In this document: in pieces, positions 18,936 to 44,428 of the stretch | Numbering within the stretch: position 1 is the first letter of the stretch | Layout of the letters: every line of letters begins with the position of its first letter | DNA from: Escherichia coli | GTDB lineage: Bacteria; Pseudomonadota; Gammaproteobacteria; Enterobacterales; Enterobacteriaceae | Length of the DNA stretch: 64,000 bases | NCBI RefSeq assembly: GCF_003790525.1 | Contig: NZ_CP033635.1 | Strand: one strand, 5' to 3' | Position numbers and translations under genes: made by a program | Notes under the pieces: generated by a model | Told to the model about the DNA's origin: nothing | Seen by the model: only the letters and a program-made list of their open reading frames with translations | Database searches by the model: none

Positions 18936-19296
18936 AAAGTCCTGTCCAGAAAGAAGTCGGCCTCGCAAAAATGAATAAACCCAGTTTCTCTTGCGCAACA
19001 GGTGGAGAAGTCGAATACGCAGTATGTAAAAAATGAGGCAACAGATTCACTGGGGAGGTCGCGAGGAGGCGCAATTCTACAAAATTGCGCATTTCACTAC
19101 CAGTCTGGAGTCAGCCCGGATATGAACTGCAACTATTGCAAATAAAGAAATTAAGCTGGAATGCATCACGCAATGAGGAAGATTGCCGGGTGCTGACGGT
19201 AAAAAGCAATCGTAGAATCAGCGGCAAGCCGGAAAGGTTCCGGTGAGGCGCAATGTTGCGGGGGCTTAATCCCTGGTGGCATTGGTTGCTGGAGAG

Positions 19297-19362
19297 AGAA
19301 AACCCCCGCATATTGCAGGTATGCACCTGACAACATCACGGGGGCTAATCTTGAACCTAGAC
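19297..19362 (-). ncRNA. rdl: Rdl antisense RNA, copy 1 (approximate boundaries)
   Basis: Antisense to the ldr leader; minus-strand transcript would begin GUCUAGGUUCAAGAUUAGCCCCCGUG and end in a GC hairpin plus U-run; position inferred from K-12 ldrD/rdlD organisation. Confidence 0.4.
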
Positions 19363-19410
19363 CACTCAAGAATAGCCGCGAAACGTTGTCATTACAACAC
19401 AGGCGGCTAT

Positions 19411-19518
19411 ATGACGCTCGCAGAACTGGGCATGGCCTTCTGGCATGATTTAGCGGCTCCGGTCATTGCTGGCATTCTTGCCAGCATGATCGTGAACTGG
19501 CTGAATAAGCGGAAGTAA
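19411..19518 (+). CDS. ldr: type I toxin Ldr, 35-aa membrane peptide (copy 1)
   Basis: MTLAELGMAFWHDLAAPVIAGILASMIVNWLNKRK; near-identical to K-12 LdrD. Confidence 0.9.
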   Translation: MTLAELGMAFWHDLAAPVIAGILASMIVNWLNKRK

Positions 19519-19568
19519 CGTGTCAGACGGGCGTCAGGCTGCCGTAATGGCAATTTGCGCCCGGACCA

Positions 19569-19599
19569 GGCCGCAGGGATAAAACTCTGCGGCCTTTTT
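19569..19599 (+). terminator. rho-independent terminator of ldr copy 1
   Basis: GGCCGCAG / CTGCGGCC stem followed by TTTTT. Confidence 0.7.
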
Positions 19600-19779
19600 C
19601 GTAAGAAAAATGCAACGGTTGCAAGCGGATAATATTCTGCGGAATGCGCAGCACAGAGTGAAGACGTGACGGATTCCGGAACAGAAAAACAGTCGTAGAA
19701 TCAGCGGCAAGCCGGAAAGGTTCCGGTGAGGCGCAATGTTGCGGGGGCTTTATCCCTGGTGGCATTGGTTGCTGGAGAG

Positions 19780-19845
19780 AGAAAACCCCCGCACGTTGCA
19801 GGTATGCACCTGACAACACCACGGGGGCTAATCTTGACTCTAGAC
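19780..19845 (-). ncRNA. rdl: Rdl antisense RNA, copy 2 (approximate boundaries)
   Basis: Minus strand would start GUCUAGAGUCAAGAUUAGCCCCCGUGGUG and end …GCGGGGGUUUUCU; candidate promoter TTGTAA-17-TATTCT upstream on the minus strand. Confidence 0.45.
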
Positions 19846-19893
19846 CACTCAAGAATAGCCGCGAAACGTTGTCATTACAACACAGGCGGCTAT

Positions 19894-20001
19894 ATGACGC
19901 TCGCAGAGCTGGGCATGGCCTTCTGGCATGATTTAGCGGCTCCGGTCATTGCTGGCATTCTTGCCAGCATGATCGTGAACTGGCTGAACAAGCGGAAGTA
20001 A
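19894..20001 (+). CDS. ldr: type I toxin Ldr, 35-aa membrane peptide (copy 2)
   Basis: Peptide identical to copy 1. Confidence 0.9.
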   Translation: MTLAELGMAFWHDLAAPVIAGILASMIVNWLNKRK

Positions 20002-20051
20002 CGTGTCAGACGGGCGTCAGGCTGCCGTAATGGCAATTTGCGCCCGGACCA

Positions 20052-20082
20052 GGCCGCAGGGATAAAACTCTGCGGCCTTTTT
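20052..20082 (+). terminator. rho-independent terminator of ldr copy 2
   Basis: same hairpin plus T-run as copy 1. Confidence 0.7.
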
Positions 20083-20263
20083 CGTAAGAAAAATGCAACG
20101 GTTGCAAGCGGATAATATTCTGCGGAATGCGCAGCACAGAGTGAAGAAGTGATGGATTTCGACGAACAAAAATGGCCGTAGAATCAGCGGCAAGCCGGAA
20201 GGGTTCCGGTGAGGCGCAATGTTGCGGGGGGCTTTATCCCTGGTGGCATTGGTTGCTGGAGAG

Positions 20264-20329
20264 AGAAAACCCCCGCACGTTGCAGGTATGCACCTGACAA
20301 CACCACGGGGGCTAATCTTGACTCTAGAC
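20264..20329 (-). ncRNA. rdl: Rdl antisense RNA, copy 3 (approximate boundaries)
   Basis: same position relative to the ldr ORF as in copy 2; sequence essentially identical. Confidence 0.45.
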
Positions 20330-20377
20330 CACTCAAGAATAGCCGCGAAACGTTGTCATTACAACACAGGCGGCTAT

Positions 20378-20485
20378 ATGACGCTCGCAGAGCTGGGCAT
20401 GGCCTTCTGGCATGATTTAGCGGCTCCGGTCATTGCTGGCATTCTTGCCAGTCTGATCGTGAACTGGCTGAACAAGCGGAAGTAA
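20378..20485 (+). CDS. ldr: type I toxin Ldr, 35-aa membrane peptide (copy 3, M26L variant)
   Basis: MTLAELGMAFWHDLAAPVIAGILASLIVNWLNKRK. Confidence 0.9.
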   Translation: MTLAELGMAFWHDLAAPVIAGILASLIVNWLNKRK

Positions 20486-20535
20486 CGTGTCAGACGGGCG
20501 TCAGGCTGCCGTAATGGCAATTTGCGCCCGGATCA

Positions 20536-20566
20536 GGCCGCAGGGATAAAACTCTGCGGCCTTTTT
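20536..20566 (+). terminator. rho-independent terminator of ldr copy 3
   Basis: GGCCGCAG / CTGCGGCC stem plus TTTTT. Confidence 0.7.
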
Positions 20567-20747
20567 CGTAAGAAAAATGCAACGGTTGCAAGCGGATAAT
20601 ATTCTGCGGAATGCGCAGCACAGAGTGAAGACGTGACGGATTCCGGAACAGAAAAACAGTCGTAGAATCAGTGGCAAGCCGGAAGGGTTCCGGTGAGGCG
20701 CAATGTTGCGGGGGGCTTAATCCCTGGTGGCATTGGTTGCTGGAGAG

Positions 20748-20813
20748 AGAAAACCCCCGCACGTTGCAGGTATGCACCTGACAACATCACGGGGGCTAAT
20801 CTTGAACCTTAAC
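20748..20813 (-). ncRNA. rdl: Rdl antisense RNA, copy 4 (approximate; 5' region diverged)
   Basis: Homologous position, but the predicted 5' end/promoter-proximal sequence is CTTGAACCTTAACAACTC instead of CTTGACTCTAGACCACTC. Confidence 0.3.
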
Positions 20814-20861
20814 AACTCAAGAATAGCCGCGAAACGTTGTCATTACAACAGAGGCGGCTAT

Positions 20862-20969
20862 ATGACGCTCGCAGAACTGGGCATGGCCTTCTGGCATGAT
20901 TTAGCGGCTCCGGTCATTGCTGGCATTCTTGCCAGTCTGATCGTGAACTCGCTGAATAAGCGGAAGTAA
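20862..20969 (+). CDS. ldr: type I toxin Ldr, 35-aa peptide (copy 4, M26L and W30S variant)
   Basis: MTLAELGMAFWHDLAAPVIAGILASLIVNSLNKRK. Confidence 0.85.
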   Translation: MTLAELGMAFWHDLAAPVIAGILASLIVNSLNKRK

Positions 20970-21019
20970 CGTGTCATGCGGGCGTCAGGCTGCCGTAATG
21001 GCAAGTTGCGCCCGGACCA

Positions 21020-21050
21020 GGCCGCAGGGGTGAAACTCTGCGGCCTTTTT
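21020..21050. terminator. terminator of ldr copy 4, 5 bp from the bcsG stop codon (possibly bidirectional)
   Basis: GGCCGCAG / CTGCGGCC stem plus TTTTT; bcsG stop codon at 21056-21058 on the opposite strand. Confidence 0.6.
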
Positions 21051-21055
21051 CGTTC

Positions 21056-39006: not shown

Positions 39007-40503
39007 ATGCAGGGCACAAAAATTCGACTTTTAGCGGGCGGTTTGCTGATGATGGCCACTGCTGGCTATGTGCAGGCAGATGCGCTCCAGCCTGATCCAG
39101 CATGGCAACAGGGGACGCTTTCCAACGGTTTACAGTGGCAAGTGCTGACTACACCCCAGCGTCCCAGCGATCGTGTTGAAATTCGCCTGCTGGTTAATAC
39201 CGGTTCGCTCGCCGAAAGTACACAACAGAGCGGTTACAGTCACGCCATCCCTCGTATTGCGCTAACGCAAAGCGGTGGCCTTGACGCAGCGCAGGCGCGT
39301 TCATTGTGGCAGCAGGGGATCGACCCTAAACGCCCGATGCCGCCGGTAATTGTCTCTTATGACACCACGCTGTTTAACCTGAGTTTGCCCAATAACCGTA
39401 ACGACTTGCTGAAAGAAGCGCTCTCTTATCTGGCAAATGCCACTGGCAAACTGACTATCACGCCAGAAACCATCAACCACGCGCTGCAAAGTCAGGACAT
39501 GGTGGCAACCTGGCCTGCCGATACTAAAGAGGGCTGGTGGCGTTATCGTCTGAAAGGATCAACCTTGTTAGGTCACGATCCTGCCGATCCGCTGAAACAA
39601 CCCGTTGAAGCGGAAAAGATTAAAGATTTCTATCAGAAATGGTACACCCCGGATGCAATGACGCTGCTGGTGGTGGGAAACGTGGATGCGCGCTCGGTCG
39701 TCGACCAAATCAATAAAACGTTTGGCGAACTGAAAGGCAAACGTGAAACACCGGCTCCGGTGCCGACGCTTTCTCCGCTGCGTGCGGAAGCGGTGAGTAT
39801 TATGACCGACGCGGTGCGTCAGGACCGGTTATCTATCATGTGGGATACGCCGTGGCAGCCGATTCGTGAATCAGCCGCACTGCTGCGCTACTGGCGTGCG
39901 GACCTGGCCCGTGAGGCGCTGTTCTGGCACGTTCAGCAAGCGTTAAGCGCCAGTAACAACAAAGAAATCGGTCTTGGATTTGATTGCCGTGTGCTGTATC
40001 TGCGTGCGCAGTGTGCCATCAACATCGAATCACCAAACGACAAGCTGAACAGCAACCTTAATCTGGTGGCGCGTGAACTGGCAAAGGTTCGCGATAAAGG
40101 TCTGCCGGAAGAAGAGTTCAATGCGTTAGTGGCGCAAAAGAAACTGGAGCTGCAGAAACTGTTTGCCGCCTATGCGCGAGCTGATACCGATATTCTGATG
40201 GGGCAGCGGATGCGTTCGTTGCAAAATCAGGTCGTCGATATCGCGCCGGAGCAATATCAGAAACTGCGTCAGGATTTCCTTAACAGCCTGACGGTGGAGA
40301 TGTTAAATCAGGATCTGCGTCAGCAGTTGTCGAATGATATGGCGTTAATACTGCTGCAGCCGAAAGGCGAGCCGGAATTTAACATGAAAGCGTTGCAGGC
40401 GGCCTGGGATCAAATCATGGCCCCATCGACTGCGGCTGCCGCCACATCTGTCGCCACGGATGACGTACATCCTGAAGTGACGGATATTCCACCCGCACAG
40501 TGA
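39007..40503 (+). CDS. yhjJ: M16-family peptidase-like periplasmic protein YhjJ
   Basis: 498-aa ORF with signal peptide; recognised as YhjJ. Confidence 0.9.
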   Translation: MQGTKIRLLAGGLLMMATAGYVQADALQPDPAWQQGTLSNGLQWQVLTTPQRPSDRVEIRLLVNTGSLAESTQQSGYSHAIPRIALTQSGGLDAAQARSLWQQGIDPKRPMPPVIVSYDTTLFNLSLPNNRNDLLKEALSYLANATGKLTITPETINHALQSQDMVATWPADTKEGWWRYRLKGSTLLGHDPADPLKQPVEAEKIKDFYQKWYTPDAMTLLVVGNVDARSVVDQINKTFGELKGKRETPAPVPTLSPLRAEAVSIMTDAVRQDRLSIMWDTPWQPIRESAALLRYWRADLAREALFWHVQQALSASNNKEIGLGFDCRVLYLRAQCAINIESPNDKLNSNLNLVARELAKVRDKGLPEEEFNALVAQKKLELQKLFAAYARADTDILMGQRMRSLQNQVVDIAPEQYQKLRQDFLNSLTVEMLNQDLRQQLSNDMALILLQPKGEPEFNMKALQAAWDQIMAPSTAAAATSVATDDVHPEVTDIPPAQ

Positions 40504-40685: not shown

Positions 40686-41216
40686 ATGCGCTACAAAGTC
40701 ACACTGTTCTTGCTGACTATGATTCTCTGCTTAACAGGGTTCTATTCCTGCAACAAGAACTTCCTCTTACTCTGGGATGCCAATAATATGTATGTCAGCA
40801 CAAGAAATAATATCGATAAAGACAAGGTAAAAATAGAATTCGGTATCAGCGTCAACACGATCAACCGAGAGACGGATGCCGAATTATTTACTGACAGAGC
40901 GAAGTATAGAATTATCTTCGATGGTAACCTAAAAAACAGGATGATAAATGAGTACGGCGAAAATGATTTTTTAATTACCTACGATGACCGCTGCTATTTA
41001 TCATTTCGTCAATTTAAAACCAATCGTCGTCATCAACATGACTATTATTTTGACTTCTTTAACAACAATGGGAATGTCTTTGTCACAGTCGAAATCAAAG
41101 GCGAGAACCCACTTAAATTTACGCGTAGTTTAAATGATATGCGTCAGCAGTTTTCACCAACTCGTGAGGATAGCCCTTCTCACTCCTGCAAGGTTATTTC
41201 TTCAGATCCTTCTTAA
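40686..41216 (+). CDS. hypothetical protein, AT-rich gene, N-terminal signal/anchor-like hydrophobic segment
   Basis: 176-aa ORF with AAAGGA RBS 5 nt upstream of ATG; markedly AT-rich by eye; N-terminus MRYKVTLFLLTMILCLTGFYSC; no K-12 counterpart recalled. Confidence 0.6.
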   Translation: MRYKVTLFLLTMILCLTGFYSCNKNFLLLWDANNMYVSTRNNIDKDKVKIEFGISVNTINRETDAELFTDRAKYRIIFDGNLKNRMINEYGENDFLITYDDRCYLSFRQFKTNRRHQHDYYFDFFNNNGNVFVTVEIKGENPLKFTRSLNDMRQQFSPTREDSPSHSCKVISSDPS

Positions 41217-43236
41217 ACACTGGATCTGGACAATCACGACCAAAATGCGCAGACCAGTCAAAAACTTTACCGTTTTTCACGTAGCGTTGATAAATTAATG
41301 CACCGGTTTCTGTATCACGATATCTGACCCAACTTGCAGCATGGCATAACACGGCAGCCCAAGCCTGGGTTTTAGGGTGAAGTAAATCGGCAGATTGTCC
41401 GGCCCATTCCGCAGCCTGCCAGCGGTAATGCAAAAAATGATCATCAGCGGTGGGGATTGCATGGCGAATACGTTGTTTTTCTTTACGACTTATCCACTGA
41501 TCGTTATTTCTGTATTCAAAGAGTGCTGAATACTGCCCACTGGAAATAGCATTATCGGGATACATTTCATAAGCCACCAATTCGATACCACTGAAACGTA
41601 AAAGCCGCGCAGCTTCGTATTGCGCCTGGGCGCGTTGTTTATCAGGGATATTTTTATTTTTTGCTATCGCCATTAAATCAGCCAGTTTTTGTGCGGCCTG
41701 GCGATGATCGGGAATATCAAACCAATTGATGGCCTGCTGATACTGACCATTACGTATTAATCGTCTACCTAATAGTGCACGTAATTTAACATCCGTGGGA
41801 ATGATATCTGGCGAAATATAATAACCGTAACTGCTCTTGTTTAAATCTATAGGTTTTAAAGGATGCTGAGGTGCTGGTACGTTTTTTTCAACAAACGCGT
41901 GTAACTCTGACAAGGTCAAAACGTTTTCTGCCACCCAGGCTAAATCAGCCCAATAGAGATCTTTGGCCTGGTAAAATAATGCGGTGGCCTGAAGATAATC
42001 ATCGCGTTTTAATGCCACAATCGCCTGTTCACTGGCAATACGGCAAGACGGGATGGTAACTTTATCGGCATGATAATAAGGGCTTTCCGGGTCCATACTT
42101 CCCCAGACTTCATCGGTAGAGAACAGCGGGGCTGCGCGAGCATAGTGACGCGTTGCCAGTGGAATATCTCCGGCTCGTAATGCCATTTTTGCTTTTAACC
42201 ATTCGCTTAATCCACTTTCTGGCGCATCCTGCAACAGCGTTTGTGCTAACGAATAATTTCCTGCCCGATACGCCAGTGCTGCCAGGCGATCGCTATAACT
42301 AAATCCTTTAACTCTGTGTTGACTTAGCAACTTAATTAAACGGTCGCGATGCGTTGGACAGGTATAATCTACAAGGTCCTTAGTACAGGCTTCGCTAACA
42401 TACCCCCAGTCATGACGAATAAAGAGCTCTGCGATTACCAGTTGCTGAACCAGAGAATCATTAATAACCGACTCCAGCAGTGGTAAATTTTTCTCCCTGG
42501 TTATATACAGCGAAATCATCCGTAGCGACGCTTTCCCGGAGGGCGAACCCTGGGCCGCTTGCCGGGCATACATTTTTACTGCCGCAGCGACATCACCTTT
42601 TTTCAGATAATAATGCCCAATCTGACCGAGACTGGCGAGAGAGAGCAATTCAGGATCGGCTGCTCCATTACGCACTTCTTCAATGATTTGCTGATAACGC
42701 TGTATGGCCTGCTCAGCAAGTTCCTGATTAAAGCCGCCTTTATTGATTATAAGATCGAGATTGTCGTCAGTGGCATCAAATCCCCCCCTTGCCAGACTAT
42801 ATAGCGTAGCAAGACGCCATTCCCCTTGCTCTGTTTTCGGCAAGGCTAATAATTGCTGAAAGTAAGGGCTATCGTATTTTCCCTGATGAAAATCCTTAGC
42901 TCCTGAATAATAAAGCCTCTGCGCCTTAGATAATGGCTTCTGCAATTTTTGCGTGATTTCCAGTATCCGATTTTGCGCAGGAGGCTCAGCATCATCATCT
43001 GTATTTGCCTGCGTTGCCTCCGCGGGCGTATCTTCATGCCATATCGGTAAATCAGGATCGCGTTTAGCCAACTGTTGTACTTCAAAGACAAAACTGCCAT
43101 TTGGCATTTCCAGCAGTGCGCTATTGCGGTCAGTTAACAGATGGTTAGGAATAAATGGTCCACAGGCATTAACGTTGGCGCTAATTAGTGAGAGAAATAC
43201 AATAACGGAAAGCCGCGATATTTTAGGGGATAACAT
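41194..43236 (-). CDS. hypothetical secreted protein, predicted signal peptide and helical-repeat (TPR/Sel1-like?) character
   Basis: 680-aa ORF; strong RBS (AGGAG, 6-nt spacing); N-terminus MLSPKISRLSVIVFLSLISANVNA; low-complexity acidic linker then Tyr/Ala/Leu-rich segments; start overlaps the upstream ORF by 14 nt. Confidence 0.75.
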   Translation of the reverse strand: MLSPKISRLSVIVFLSLISANVNACGPFIPNHLLTDRNSALLEMPNGSFVFEVQQLAKRDPDLPIWHEDTPAEATQANTDDDAEPPAQNRILEITQKLQKPLSKAQRLYYSGAKDFHQGKYDSPYFQQLLALPKTEQGEWRLATLYSLARGGFDATDDNLDLIINKGGFNQELAEQAIQRYQQIIEEVRNGAADPELLSLASLGQIGHYYLKKGDVAAAVKMYARQAAQGSPSGKASLRMISLYITREKNLPLLESVINDSLVQQLVIAELFIRHDWGYVSEACTKDLVDYTCPTHRDRLIKLLSQHRVKGFSYSDRLAALAYRAGNYSLAQTLLQDAPESGLSEWLKAKMALRAGDIPLATRHYARAAPLFSTDEVWGSMDPESPYYHADKVTIPSCRIASEQAIVALKRDDYLQATALFYQAKDLYWADLAWVAENVLTLSELHAFVEKNVPAPQHPLKPIDLNKSSYGYYISPDIIPTDVKLRALLGRRLIRNGQYQQAINWFDIPDHRQAAQKLADLMAIAKNKNIPDKQRAQAQYEAARLLRFSGIELVAYEMYPDNAISSGQYSALFEYRNNDQWISRKEKQRIRHAIPTADDHFLHYRWQAAEWAGQSADLLHPKTQAWAAVLCHAASWVRYRDTETGALIYQRYVKNGKVFDWSAHFGRDCPDPVFKKDLKK

Positions 43237-44428
43237 TAAACTCTCCTTGAATTTTTTGATTGCAGCGCGCCCATCCCAGCGGACTGCTTTCTCCGGCGCG
43301 TAGTTGCCTGGCGCTTCCTCTCACAAAATTCAGGCTGGATGGTCCAGGTTGCACCTGATAGTGGCTGGCTCCATCAGCGAATAGACAATCTGCATTGGAC
43401 ATAATTATTTGTTTTGGCAATGGCGCATCAATTACGCCGCTGTTTTTAAAGGCCAGATCAAAAAGTTGCTTGTCTGCATGTTGAGTAATTATTAACGACC
43501 AGCGCGGAGTCAGCGGTTGATGTTGAATCACAGCTTCAAGCGTTGTCAGGGACCAGGCGCGGCGATCGCCTGCTAATGGTAGCCGAAACCATACCAACCC
43601 CTGTAATCCATGCGGTGGTTGCTGTTCTAAATATTGAATGAAATCGGCAATTGTTTGCGGCGACACACTTAATTCACGCATCTCTTCGGCAACGTATAAC
43701 GGAGCTTCACTCTCGACGCGATTATCACTGGTGAGCGCAGAACCGTAAGCGGGCAATGCGATGAAAAAAGGATGCGTGGTTTGTCTGGCATATTGCTTTA
43801 CCCAACGCTGCGCCAGACTGGCATCTAACAGGCCTTTTTCGGGCGATAGCACGTTATGTACCTGCAAAACCGAAGTGTCCGCAATCCGCAATAATCGGGC
43901 GAGATGTGGTGATTCAAGCCAGGTAGGCAGGACGGTAATGCTAAGTTTTATATTTGTAGGAAGTGCCTGATGTAACGTACTAAGTAGGGTCAGATAGTCC
44001 GGCAATTTTGCTGTTGGCGCGTCATAATCAATTTCTACCCCTACCAGCGTAATACCAGCTTTTTGCCACTCACGTAGGGTTTGTTGAATATGCTGGATAA
44101 TTTGCTGGTTATTAAGCCGTGTAAGCTGACCTTCGAGTCGCGCGACCAGCCAGACCGGGCGACCATCTTGCTTAATAAGTGAAGTATTAACCGTAAAGTG
44201 TCGGATGCCTTCTTGCGGGTGAAATTGCATCCCGAGTACGCGAAGCGTAGAGAAAAGCGGGCGGCTTCGTTTGAGTGCCTCGTTATGTTCTGCCGTCCAG
44301 ACGCGTTGCCAGATATAGACTTGCTGATCAAAGCGAAGCGGTTGTGAAGGGGTAAATAAAATATGCAGCCCGTAGCCCAGGCAGATCAGAAGAAGTGAAG
44401 CTGCAAAAATCCTTTTGCAAGATGGCAT
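43223..44428 (-). CDS. hypothetical protein with N-terminal signal peptide or membrane anchor
   Basis: 401-aa ORF; N-terminus MPSCKRIFAASLLLICLGYGLHILF; no family assigned from sequence alone; lies 94 bp downstream of kdgK on the same strand. Confidence 0.7.
   Translation of the reverse strand: MPSCKRIFAASLLLICLGYGLHILFTPSQPLRFDQQVYIWQRVWTAEHNEALKRSRPLFSTLRVLGMQFHPQEGIRHFTVNTSLIKQDGRPVWLVARLEGQLTRLNNQQIIQHIQQTLREWQKAGITLVGVEIDYDAPTAKLPDYLTLLSTLHQALPTNIKLSITVLPTWLESPHLARLLRIADTSVLQVHNVLSPEKGLLDASLAQRWVKQYARQTTHPFFIALPAYGSALTSDNRVESEAPLYVAEEMRELSVSPQTIADFIQYLEQQPPHGLQGLVWFRLPLAGDRRAWSLTTLEAVIQHQPLTPRWSLIITQHADKQLFDLAFKNSGVIDAPLPKQIIMSNADCLFADGASHYQVQPGPSSLNFVRGSARQLRAGESSPLGWARCNQKIQGEFNVIP

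What the first reader, a model, noticed from the sequence alone, without database searches (positions are those of the whole stretch)
19190..21055. Four tandem ldr/rdl type I toxin-antitoxin cassettes at the yhjV-bcsG locus
Four direct repeats with a period of 483-484 bp each contain a 35-aa Ldr toxin ORF (starts 19411, 19894, 20378, 20862), a GC hairpin plus T5 terminator, and an upstream region antisense to which the Rdl RNA is expected. To my recollection K-12 carries a single copy (ldrD/rdlD) at this locus and its triple array (ldrABC) at a different locus near 27 min. A four-copy array here indicates copy-number expansion by unequal recombination and possibly higher toxin dosage or regulatory diversification. 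A TAGAAT hexamer (19213-19218 and equivalents) is a candidate -10 for the ldr mRNA.
Basis: partly seen in the sequence, partly recalled or inferred. Interest (0 to 1): 0.6.

Follow-up and report, generated by a model that had tools for sequence, protein, structure and literature searches.

The report
Four-copy ldr/rdl toxin-antitoxin array
The window really holds four tandem copies of the well-known E. coli Ldr toxin / Rdl antisense-RNA module between yhjV and bcsG. This is an ordinary, already annotated copy-number polymorphism, and this genome's closest relatives carry five copies.

Summary
Window 19202-21053 is a 484-bp tandem repeat of 3.8 copies. Each unit has a 35-aa Ldr ORF (Pfam Ldr_toxin), a minus-strand rdlD match in Rfam (86-88 bits, gathering score 50), a TTGTAA-17-TATTCT Rdl promoter and a GC-hairpin/T5 terminator.

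It is not unusual. In two systematic samples of 5,426 complete E. coli genomes (116 distinct records), this locus had 1 copy in 45, 2 in 13, 3 in 37, 4 in 19 (about 16%) and 5 or more in 2. NCBI's PGAP pipeline annotates all of them.

The window differs from E. coli SMS-3-5 by two SNPs in 64 kb plus one missing 484-bp unit. SMS-3-5 and eight other complete genomes with identical flanks all carry five copies. The window's unit 3 is a hybrid of their units 3 and 4, joined inside a 140-bp identical tract (20393-20532). So four copies here is a one-unit contraction. It arose either by real unequal recombination or by assembly collapse, and the sequence alone cannot tell which.

Copy 4 carries W30S at the family's signature tryptophan.

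Verdict: already known, low interest.

The parts
19202..19684 (+). LDR unit 1 (483 bp), identical to unit 1 of the E. coli SMS-3-5 five-unit array
   Evidence: TRF; unit comparison
19685..20168 (+). LDR unit 2 (484 bp), identical to SMS-3-5 unit 2. Its Rdl is 66/66 identical to K-12 RdlD.
20169..20652 (+). LDR unit 3 (484 bp), a hybrid: the 5' part matches SMS-3-5 unit 3 and the 3' part matches SMS-3-5 unit 4
   Evidence: The prefix/suffix identity to SMS-3-5 overlaps by 140 bp
20653..21053 (+). LDR unit 4 (401 bp, ends at its terminator next to bcsG), identical to SMS-3-5 unit 5
20393..20532 (.). 140-bp tract identical between the parental units 3 and 4. The one-unit deletion or collapse junction lies somewhere within it.
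19411..19518 (+). ldr ORF 1: MTLAELGMAFWHDLAAPVIAGILASMIVNWLNKRK (34/35 identical to K-12 LdrD; RefSeq WP_001295224.1)
19894..20001 (+). ldr ORF 2, same peptide as ORF 1
20378..20485 (+). ldr ORF 3, M26L variant (WP_000170738.1)
20862..20969 (+). ldr ORF 4, M26L + W30S variant (WP_000170736.1). It lacks the conserved tryptophan but still matches Pfam Ldr_toxin over its full length (E = 1.2e-23).
19297..19362 (-). rdl antisense RNA gene 1, complementary to the ldr 5' UTR
   Evidence: Rfam RF01813, 86.3 bits
19780..19845 (-). rdl gene 2
   Evidence: Rfam RF01813, 87.0 bits
20264..20329 (-). rdl gene 3 (identical to rdl 2)
   Evidence: Rfam RF01813, 87.0 bits
20748..20813 (-). rdl gene 4
   Evidence: Rfam RF01813, 88.3 bits
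19369..19397 (-). Rdl promoter of unit 1: -35 TTGTAA (19392-19397), 17-nt spacer, -10 TATTCT (19369-19374), start 7 nt downstream at 19362. Exact copies lie at 19852-19880, 20336-20364 and 20820-20848.
   Evidence: A 34-nt pattern is found 4 times with 0 mismatches. The hexamer assignment is my reading of the sequence.
19213..19218 (+). Candidate -10 (TAGAAT) of the ldr mRNA. Equivalents lie at 19696-19701, 20179-20184 and 20663-20668.
   Evidence: Conserved as TAGTAT in K-12 LDR-A/B/C; 4 exact copies. No consensus -35.
19568..19600 (+). Intrinsic terminator of ldr mRNA 1 (11-bp stem with 8 GC pairs, then TTTTT). Equivalents lie at 20051-20083, 20535-20567 and 21019-21051.

Best explanation
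The region is a tandem array of four autonomous Ldr/Rdl (LDR-D type) type I toxin-antitoxin modules in an Escherichia coli chromosome almost identical to strain SMS-3-5.

Each 484-bp unit is predicted to make a highly structured ldr mRNA of about 375 nt. It would start just downstream of TAGAAT and end at its own hairpin/T5 terminator. The mRNA encodes a 35-aa hydrophobic inner-membrane peptide.

From the opposite strand each unit makes a 66-nt Rdl RNA from a TTGTAA-17-TATTCT promoter. Rdl is fully complementary to the ldr 5' UTR, 49-114 nt upstream of the ATG. Pairing of Rdl with the leader is thought to form a duplex processed by RNase III and to keep the toxin untranslated, in a hok/sok-like manner.

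This mechanism was shown for K-12 ldrD/rdlD in the literature. It is inferred here from near-identity: the peptides are 32-34/35 identical to LdrD, and Rdl 2 and 3 are 66/66 identical to RdlD.

The array changes length by homologous exchange between units. Copy number at this locus runs from 1 to at least 5 among E. coli. The window's array equals the five-unit array of its clone minus exactly one unit, with the junction inside a 140-bp tract identical between parental units 3 and 4. Whether that loss happened in the cell or in the assembler cannot be decided from the sequence.
For: - Array: TRF result.
- Toxin: ORFs; Pfam Ldr_toxin 1-35/35, E = 1.2e-23, for the most divergent copy.
- Antitoxin: four Rfam rdlD matches at 86-88 bits against a gathering score of 50; exact Rdl promoter in all four units. 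The copy-1 double change in Rdl stem 2 keeps pairing through wobble pairs (sequence read against the Rfam structure).
- Transcript ends: terminators; -10 conserved between LDR-D and LDR-ABC.
- mRNA structure: MFE -177.8 kcal/mol, z = -8.8, with long-range pairing between the 5' end and the 3' UTR.
- K-12 annotation of ldrD/rdlD at the same locus.
- PGAP annotation of 1-5 Ldr genes at this locus in sampled complete genomes.
- Window against SMS-3-5: 2 SNPs in 64 kb plus one missing unit. Nine nearest complete genomes with five copies.
- LS45, from the same clone, has four copies with a different junction.
- Literature on the mechanism: PMC4147584, PMC7373196, PMC2887945.
Against: - There are no expression or toxicity data for these copies.
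- The ldr promoter has no recognisable -35, and the simple promoter scan found nothing.
- Copy 4 has lost the signature tryptophan (W30S) and may be attenuated.
- The proposed leader ORF could not be pinned down. The in-frame upstream ATG is missing or interrupted in 5 of 37 LDR-D units and absent from LDR-A/B/C.
- The exact four-unit arrangement is found in no other complete genome (best 99.5%; junction segment best 99.0%). That is what one would also expect from an assembly error.
Confidence: 0.9

Rival explanations
1. Assembly collapse. The real genome has five units like SMS-3-5 and its clone. The assembler skipped the loop between the 140-bp tract shared by units 3 and 4 and produced a four-unit array.
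For: - All nine complete genomes with identical flanks have five units, and six of them have arrays identical to the base.
- The window equals that array minus exactly one unit, with the junction in a 140-bp exact repeat. That is longer than common assembler k-mers and nearly as long as a 150-nt read.
- The resulting hybrid is seen in none of 5,426 complete genomes, nor in the species-representative genomes or the JGI metagenomes.
- The source genome is not among the RefSeq complete E. coli genomes, so it may be a draft.
Against: - The same signature is expected from genuine RecA-mediated unequal crossing-over.
- A second member of the clone, LS45 (a complete genome), has a four-unit array with a different junction. 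e1-39 and XDL show conversion tracts. So real exchanges occur in this array.
- Units differ every 140 bp or less, so paired or long reads should resolve them.
Confidence: 0.4
2. Lineage-specific expansion. A K-12-like single ldrD/rdlD copy was recently amplified to four in this strain, giving an unusual toxin dosage.
For: K-12 and about 39% of sampled genomes have one copy. Tandem arrays can grow by unequal recombination.
Against: - Multi-copy arrays occur in about 61% of sampled genomes across many lineages, and four copies in about 16%.
- The units differ by 3.5-5.5%, so they are old, not recently amplified.
- The closest relatives have five, so the last change was a loss.
Confidence: 0.03
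3. Some or all copies are decaying relics, with inactive toxin or silent genes kept only by hitch-hiking. Copy 4 with W30S is the main candidate.
For: - Copy 4 replaces the tryptophan described as the Ldr/Fst superfamily signature (PMC2887945).
- No phenotype is known for deletion of chromosomal Fst/Ldr loci (PMC7472228).
Against: - All four ORFs are intact and full length. All four Rdl genes, promoters and terminators are intact.
- The W30S allele is retained as the bcsG-proximal copy in distinct lineages: the SMS-3-5 clone, KE40 and E600003.
- The pAD1 Fst prototype has valine at this position and is toxic (PMC7472228).
Confidence: 0.1

Closest known systems
E. coli K-12 ldrD/rdlD (LDR-D) at bcsG-yhjV
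   Same: Same locus, same flanking genes and same unit architecture: -10, structured 5' UTR, antisense Rdl, 35-aa ORF and terminator. The peptides are 32-34/35 identical, and Rdl of units 2 and 3 is 66/66 identical to RdlD.
   Different: Four units instead of one. All four peptides have L3 where K-12 LdrD has F3. Copies 3 and 4 carry M26L, and copy 4 also W30S.
Five-unit Ldr array of E. coli SMS-3-5 (NC_010498.1) and its clone
   Same: Identical sequence across the 64-kb window apart from 2 SNPs. Units 1, 2 and 4 of the window equal units 1, 2 and 5 of SMS-3-5.
   Different: One 484-bp unit fewer. Window unit 3 is a hybrid of SMS-3-5 units 3 and 4.
Four-unit Ldr arrays annotated by PGAP in other E. 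coli (for example IAI39 NC_011750.1, LS45, D10, CV839-06, EH031)
   Same: Same locus and same copy number, annotated as 'type I toxin-antitoxin system toxin Ldr family protein (x4)'.
   Different: 97-99.5% identical. The units are shuffled or converted differently, and none has the same array.
E. coli K-12 ldrABC/rdlABC array at kdsA-chaA
   Same: A tandem array of the same module. It shares the -10 position, Rdl structure, Rdl promoter, SD/ATG region and terminator.
   Different: Period of 535 bp against 484 bp. The peptides come from the other Ldr subgroup, about 60% identical by my count from the sequences. The locus is different.
hok/sok and ibs/sib type I toxin-antitoxin loci
   Same: A small membrane toxin repressed by a cis-encoded antisense RNA. 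As in hok/sok, the antisense RNA targets the leader rather than the toxin start codon, and the mRNA is predicted to pair its 5' and 3' ends. As in ibs/sib, the modules are tandemly duplicated.
   Different: Unrelated toxin families. The Rfam sok matches here are far below threshold (27-28 bits against 59). Copy-specific discrimination has been shown for Sib, not for Rdl.

Membership tests
Ldr toxin (Pfam PF13940, Ldr/Fst superfamily) | Peptide of about 35 aa matching the Ldr_toxin profile over its full length | tested here: met
   The most divergent copy (copy 4) matches PF13940 1-35/35, E = 1.2e-23, 83.3 bits. The other copies differ from it by 1-2 residues. NCBIfam gave no hit.
Ldr toxin (Pfam PF13940, Ldr/Fst superfamily) | Conserved tryptophan after the transmembrane helix, followed by a charged C-terminus (PMC2887945) | tested here: inconclusive
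   Copies 1-3 have ...IVNWLNKRK. Copy 4 has ...IVNSLNKRK, so W30S. The charged tail is present in all four. The tryptophan is reported as not essential in Fst-pAD1 (PMC7472228).
Ldr toxin (Pfam PF13940, Ldr/Fst superfamily) | PXXXG motif inside the hydrophobic helix (PMC7472228) | tested here: met
   A-P-V-I-A-G (P17...G21) is present in all four peptides (read directly).
Rdl antitoxin RNA (Rfam RF01813) | Antisense RNA of about 66 nt with the family's stem-loop structure, encoded opposite the ldr 5' UTR and not overlapping the ORF | tested here: met
   Four full-length matches (model 1-66) at 86-88 bits against a gathering score of 50. They lie on the strand opposite ldr, 49-114 nt upstream of each ATG.
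LDR (long direct repeat) element of E. coli | Unit of about 0.5 kb carrying both genes with their own promoters and terminator, alone or in tandem, at the bcsG-yhjV or kdsA-chaA intergenic region | tested here: met
   484-bp period; flanks yhjV and bcsG; Rdl promoter and ldr terminator in every unit; alignment with K-12 LDR-D and LDR-A/B/C.
Type I toxin-antitoxin system (functional definition) | Overexpressed peptide is toxic, and the antisense RNA represses its synthesis | not testable with these tools
   Shown for K-12 LdrD/RdlD according to PMC4147584. Here it is inferred only from sequence identity.

The most novel reading that the evidence does not exclude
The units of an array may be kept distinct where it matters for recognition. 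Among 37 LDR-D units from 12 genomes, the most polymorphic 18-nt stretch of the whole unit is the single-stranded 5' tail of Rdl, which is also its target in the ldr leader. Pairwise diversity there is 0.18-0.22 against 0.044 overall. The window's array encodes three different Rdl species that differ at 4-5 of 66 positions. If these differences make each Rdl specific for its own ldr mRNA, as shown for Sib/Ibs, the array would be a set of partly orthogonal modules maintained by diversifying selection, rather than simple extra dosage. The W30S copy might then serve mainly as an Rdl donor.
Probability: 0.12. Interest if true: 0.4.

Novelty: already known. Interest (0 to 1): 0.1.

Why it matters
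It matters little as a discovery. Ldr/Rdl modules, their tandem duplication and their variable number among enterobacteria are in the literature (Kawano 2002, as cited in the reviews read; Fozo 2010, PMC2887945). Four- and five-copy arrays at this locus are routinely annotated in public genomes.

The useful results are practical:
- K-12's single copy is not the norm at this locus.
- The array length is a fast-changing character even within a clone.
- This particular four-copy count should not be trusted without long reads, because every close relative has five.

For people studying type I toxin-antitoxin dosage or cross-talk, the natural series of 1-5 copies and the polymorphism hot spot in the Rdl 5' tail offer ready-made material.

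Tried and rejected
- NCBIfam search of the three peptide variants gave no family. Pfam was used instead.
- The simple sigma-70 scan found no promoter in the array. The promoters were therefore read by hand and checked by conservation.
- I looked for the proposed leader ORF (ldrX, cited). An in-frame ATG at 19321 inside the Rdl target is open through to ldr in the four window units. It is lost or interrupted in 5 of 37 LDR-D units and absent from LDR-A/B/C. A second upstream ATG (19253) changes frame with a G5/G6 run. So I do not assign ldrX.
- The sub-threshold Rfam 'sok' matches on the ldr leader (27-28 bits against 59) were rejected as family membership.
- I tried to find the source genome or another carrier of the hybrid junction. 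A 166-nt exact pattern found nothing in the species-representative genomes or in the JGI metagenomes. A 391-bp junction segment has no match of 99% or better in complete E. coli genomes.
- The Kawano 2012 review was not held, either by DOI or under the PMC id I guessed for it. No supplementary files were held for Fozo 2010. A literature search for population-level Ldr copy number found nothing relevant.
- The exact transcription start of the ldr mRNA could not be verified from papers held here.
Full report
**Observation.**
- Tandem Repeats Finder reports one array at 19202-21053: period 484, 3.8 copies, 96% matches, no indels.
- Cut in register, the units are 19202-19684, 19685-20168, 20169-20652 and 20653-21053. 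They are 94.5-96.5% identical pairwise.
- Each unit holds a 35-codon ORF on the + strand, starting at 19411, 19894, 20378 and 20862.
- Each ORF is followed by an 11-bp GC-rich hairpin and TTTTT.
- The flanking genes are yhjV and bcsG, both on the - strand.

**Anatomy of a unit.**
- Rfam places a full-length rdlD antitoxin RNA (RF01813, 86-88 bits, gathering score 50) on the - strand of every unit, 49-114 nt upstream of the ldr ATG. It therefore lies opposite the ldr leader and not the ORF.
- Immediately upstream of each Rdl start is TTGTAA, a 17-nt spacer and TATTCT, then the start 7 nt further on. This 34-nt block is present four times without a mismatch.
- A start just downstream of it, with termination at the hairpin, gives an mRNA of about 375 nt. 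From memory, that agrees with the roughly 370-nt ldrD mRNA of Kawano et al. 2002, which I could not read here.
- No acceptable -35 precedes TAGAAT, and the consensus scan found no promoter.
- The predicted mRNA folds far better than shuffled controls (-177.8 kcal/mol, z = -8.8). Its 5' end pairs with the 3' UTR, a hok-like feature.

**Identity.**
- The peptides are MTLAELGMAFWHDLAAPVIAGILASMIVNWLNKRK (copies 1 and 2), the M26L variant (copy 3) and M26L+W30S (copy 4).
- They are 34, 33 and 32 of 35 residues identical to K-12 LdrD.
- Even copy 4 matches Pfam Ldr_toxin end to end (E = 1.2e-23).
- All three variants are existing RefSeq proteins: WP_001295224.1, WP_000170738.1 and WP_000170736.1.
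- Rdl of units 2 and 3 is identical to K-12 RdlD.
- Copy 1 carries a CG-to-UA change in Rdl stem 2 that keeps both pairs through G-U wobbles (sequences read against the structure).
- Copy 4 lacks the tryptophan that Fozo et al. call the superfamily signature. Weaver notes that the pAD1 Fst prototype has valine there and is still toxic.
- The W30S allele is the bcsG-proximal copy in unrelated strains as well: KE40, and E600003 where it carries an extra A9S. It is therefore a stable allele, not an error.

**Comparison with K-12 and the species.** MG1655 has one ldrD/rdlD between bcsG and yhjV and ldrABC/rdlABC between kdsA and chaA. But K-12 is not typical.
- The 5.2-kb locus matches 5,425 of 5,426 complete E. 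coli genomes. The best 30 hits all carry four PGAP-annotated Ldr genes here, including IAI39.
- Two systematic samples taken at even steps down the ranking give 116 distinct records with the locus.

| Copies at the locus | Records (of 116) |
|---|---|
| 1 | 45 |
| 2 | 13 |
| 3 | 37 (BL21 and ST131 among them) |
| 4 | 19 |
| 5 or more | 2 |

- Four copies is therefore a common state, about 16%. Two or more copies is the majority, about 61%.
- Variable Ldr counts and lineage-specific duplications were already described by Fozo et al. 2010.

**The nearest relatives have five copies.**
- Window 22000-46000 is 100% identical to E. coli SMS-3-5 and several other complete genomes.
- Over the whole 64 kb, the window differs from SMS-3-5 by two substitutions (window 30248 and 51872) and by the absence of one 484-bp unit.
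- SMS-3-5, 2D, KFu014, GN03551, TUM1586, e1-39, MINF_1A, M172-1 and XDL all have five Ldr genes here. Their arrays are identical to the base in six of the nine.
- The window's array equals that array with one unit removed. The identical prefix and suffix overlap by 140 bp, which is the tract (unit positions 223-364, window 20393-20532) where SMS-3-5 units 3 and 4 do not differ. Window unit 3 is thus a hybrid of units 3 and 4.
- No complete genome has this array (best 99.5%) or this junction segment (best 99.0%). A 166-nt exact pattern across the junction is absent from the species-representative genomes and the JGI metagenomes.
- LS45, another member of the clone, also has four units but lost a different one through a unit-1/unit-2 exchange. 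e1-39 and XDL show short conversion tracts.

**Real loss or artefact.** A single exchange within 140 bp of identity is what RecA-dependent unequal crossing-over produces. It is also what an assembler produces when it fails to go round a loop anchored on a 140-bp exact repeat. The LS45, e1-39 and XDL variants show that real exchanges happen in this clone. The fact that nine of nine near-identical complete genomes have five units, and that the source is not itself among the complete genomes, keeps collapse a live possibility. I put it at about 40%. Either way, the last step in this lineage was five to four, not an expansion.

**How it most likely works.**
- Shown in the literature for K-12: overproduced LdrD is toxic and RdlD co-expression relieves it. 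RdlD overlaps the 5' UTR rather than the ribosome-binding site. A hok/sok-like mechanism through a leader ORF has been proposed but not confirmed (PMC4147584). An RNase III-dependent duplex of about 21 nt forms in the rdlD/ldrD overlap (PMC7373196).
- Inferred here: each unit is a self-contained module with its own promoters and terminator, so four units give four toxin mRNAs and four Rdl RNAs of three sequence types. Units 2 and 3 share an identical Rdl and must cross-regulate. The other pairs differ at 4-5 of 66 positions and probably cross-react, but this is untested.
- Because toxin and antitoxin are amplified together, copy number by itself need not change the toxin/antitoxin balance.

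**A side observation on diversity.** I aligned 37 LDR-D units from the window and 11 other genomes. The most polymorphic 18-nt stretch of the unit is the Rdl 5' tail and its target (window 19346-19363 in copy 1). Mean pairwise diversity there is 0.22, against 0.044 for the whole unit. A cis-encoded pair stays complementary whatever mutates, so relaxed constraint explains this as well as selection for copy-specific recognition does. I rank the latter as the most novel reading not excluded, at low probability.

**Verdict.** The implied novelty is not there. This is a known family at its known locus, in a copy-number state that is common and already annotated. The specific count of four is one less than in every close relative and needs long-read confirmation.

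Noticed in passing
window 40686-44428: Three ORFs lie between yhjJ (39007-40503) and kdgK (from 44523): 176 aa on the + strand, 680 aa and 401 aa on the - strand. The 401-aa one is PGAP's 'DUF3142 domain-containing protein'. The block is full length in only 30 of 5,426 complete E. coli genomes, and about 170 more hold only a remnant of about 450 bp. NCBIfam and PADLOC (all three ORFs) and Pfam (the 680-aa ORF only) gave nothing significant, just weak TPR-like noise in that ORF.
   Followed up: partly
window 19346-19363 and equivalents (Rdl 5' tail / ldr leader target): This is the polymorphism hot spot of the LDR-D unit across 37 units from 12 genomes (pairwise diversity 0.22 against 0.044 overall). 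At least seven different tail sequences occur, for example GUCUAGGUUCAAGAUUAG, GUUUGGAUGCAAGAAUGG and GUGUAGGUUCAAGAAUGG.
   Followed up: partly
window 20862-20969 (ldr copy 4): W30S replaces the Ldr/Fst signature tryptophan. The same allele (WP_000170736.1) is the bcsG-proximal copy in the SMS-3-5 clone, LS45 and KE40. E600003 has it with an extra A9S.
   Followed up: partly
window 30248 and 51872: These are the only two substitutions between the window and E. coli SMS-3-5 over 64 kb. By coordinate mapping they fall in bcsB and rcdB.
   Followed up: no
window 19260-19413 and 20711-20864 (+ strand): Sub-threshold Rfam matches of the 'sok' model (RF01794, 27-28 bits against a gathering score of 59) lie over the ldr leaders of units 1 and 4. 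This fits the remark in the T1TAdb paper that one E. coli locus with an Ldr-type peptide was classed as Hok/Sok by its RNA and gene-organisation features. It is not evidence of membership.
   Followed up: no
window 19159-19165, 19643-19649, 20127-20133, 20611-20617: A GGAATG(C) block about 50 nt upstream of the ldr -10 is conserved in all four units, in K-12 LDR-D and in LDR-A/B/C, although the surrounding spacer is otherwise diverged. It is too far upstream for a -35. It could be an UP-like or regulator site.
   Followed up: no
L021 (XDL) unit 3; L018 (e1-39) unit 2; H2 (IAI39); H65 (SW070910): Other rearrangements occur at the same locus. XDL has a 12-mismatch cluster consistent with a gene-conversion tract, and e1-39 has a converted unit 2. 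IAI39 has an IS4 under the match, with bcsG listed twice, and SW070910 has an IS200C transposase listed under the match alongside two Ldr genes.
   Followed up: partly
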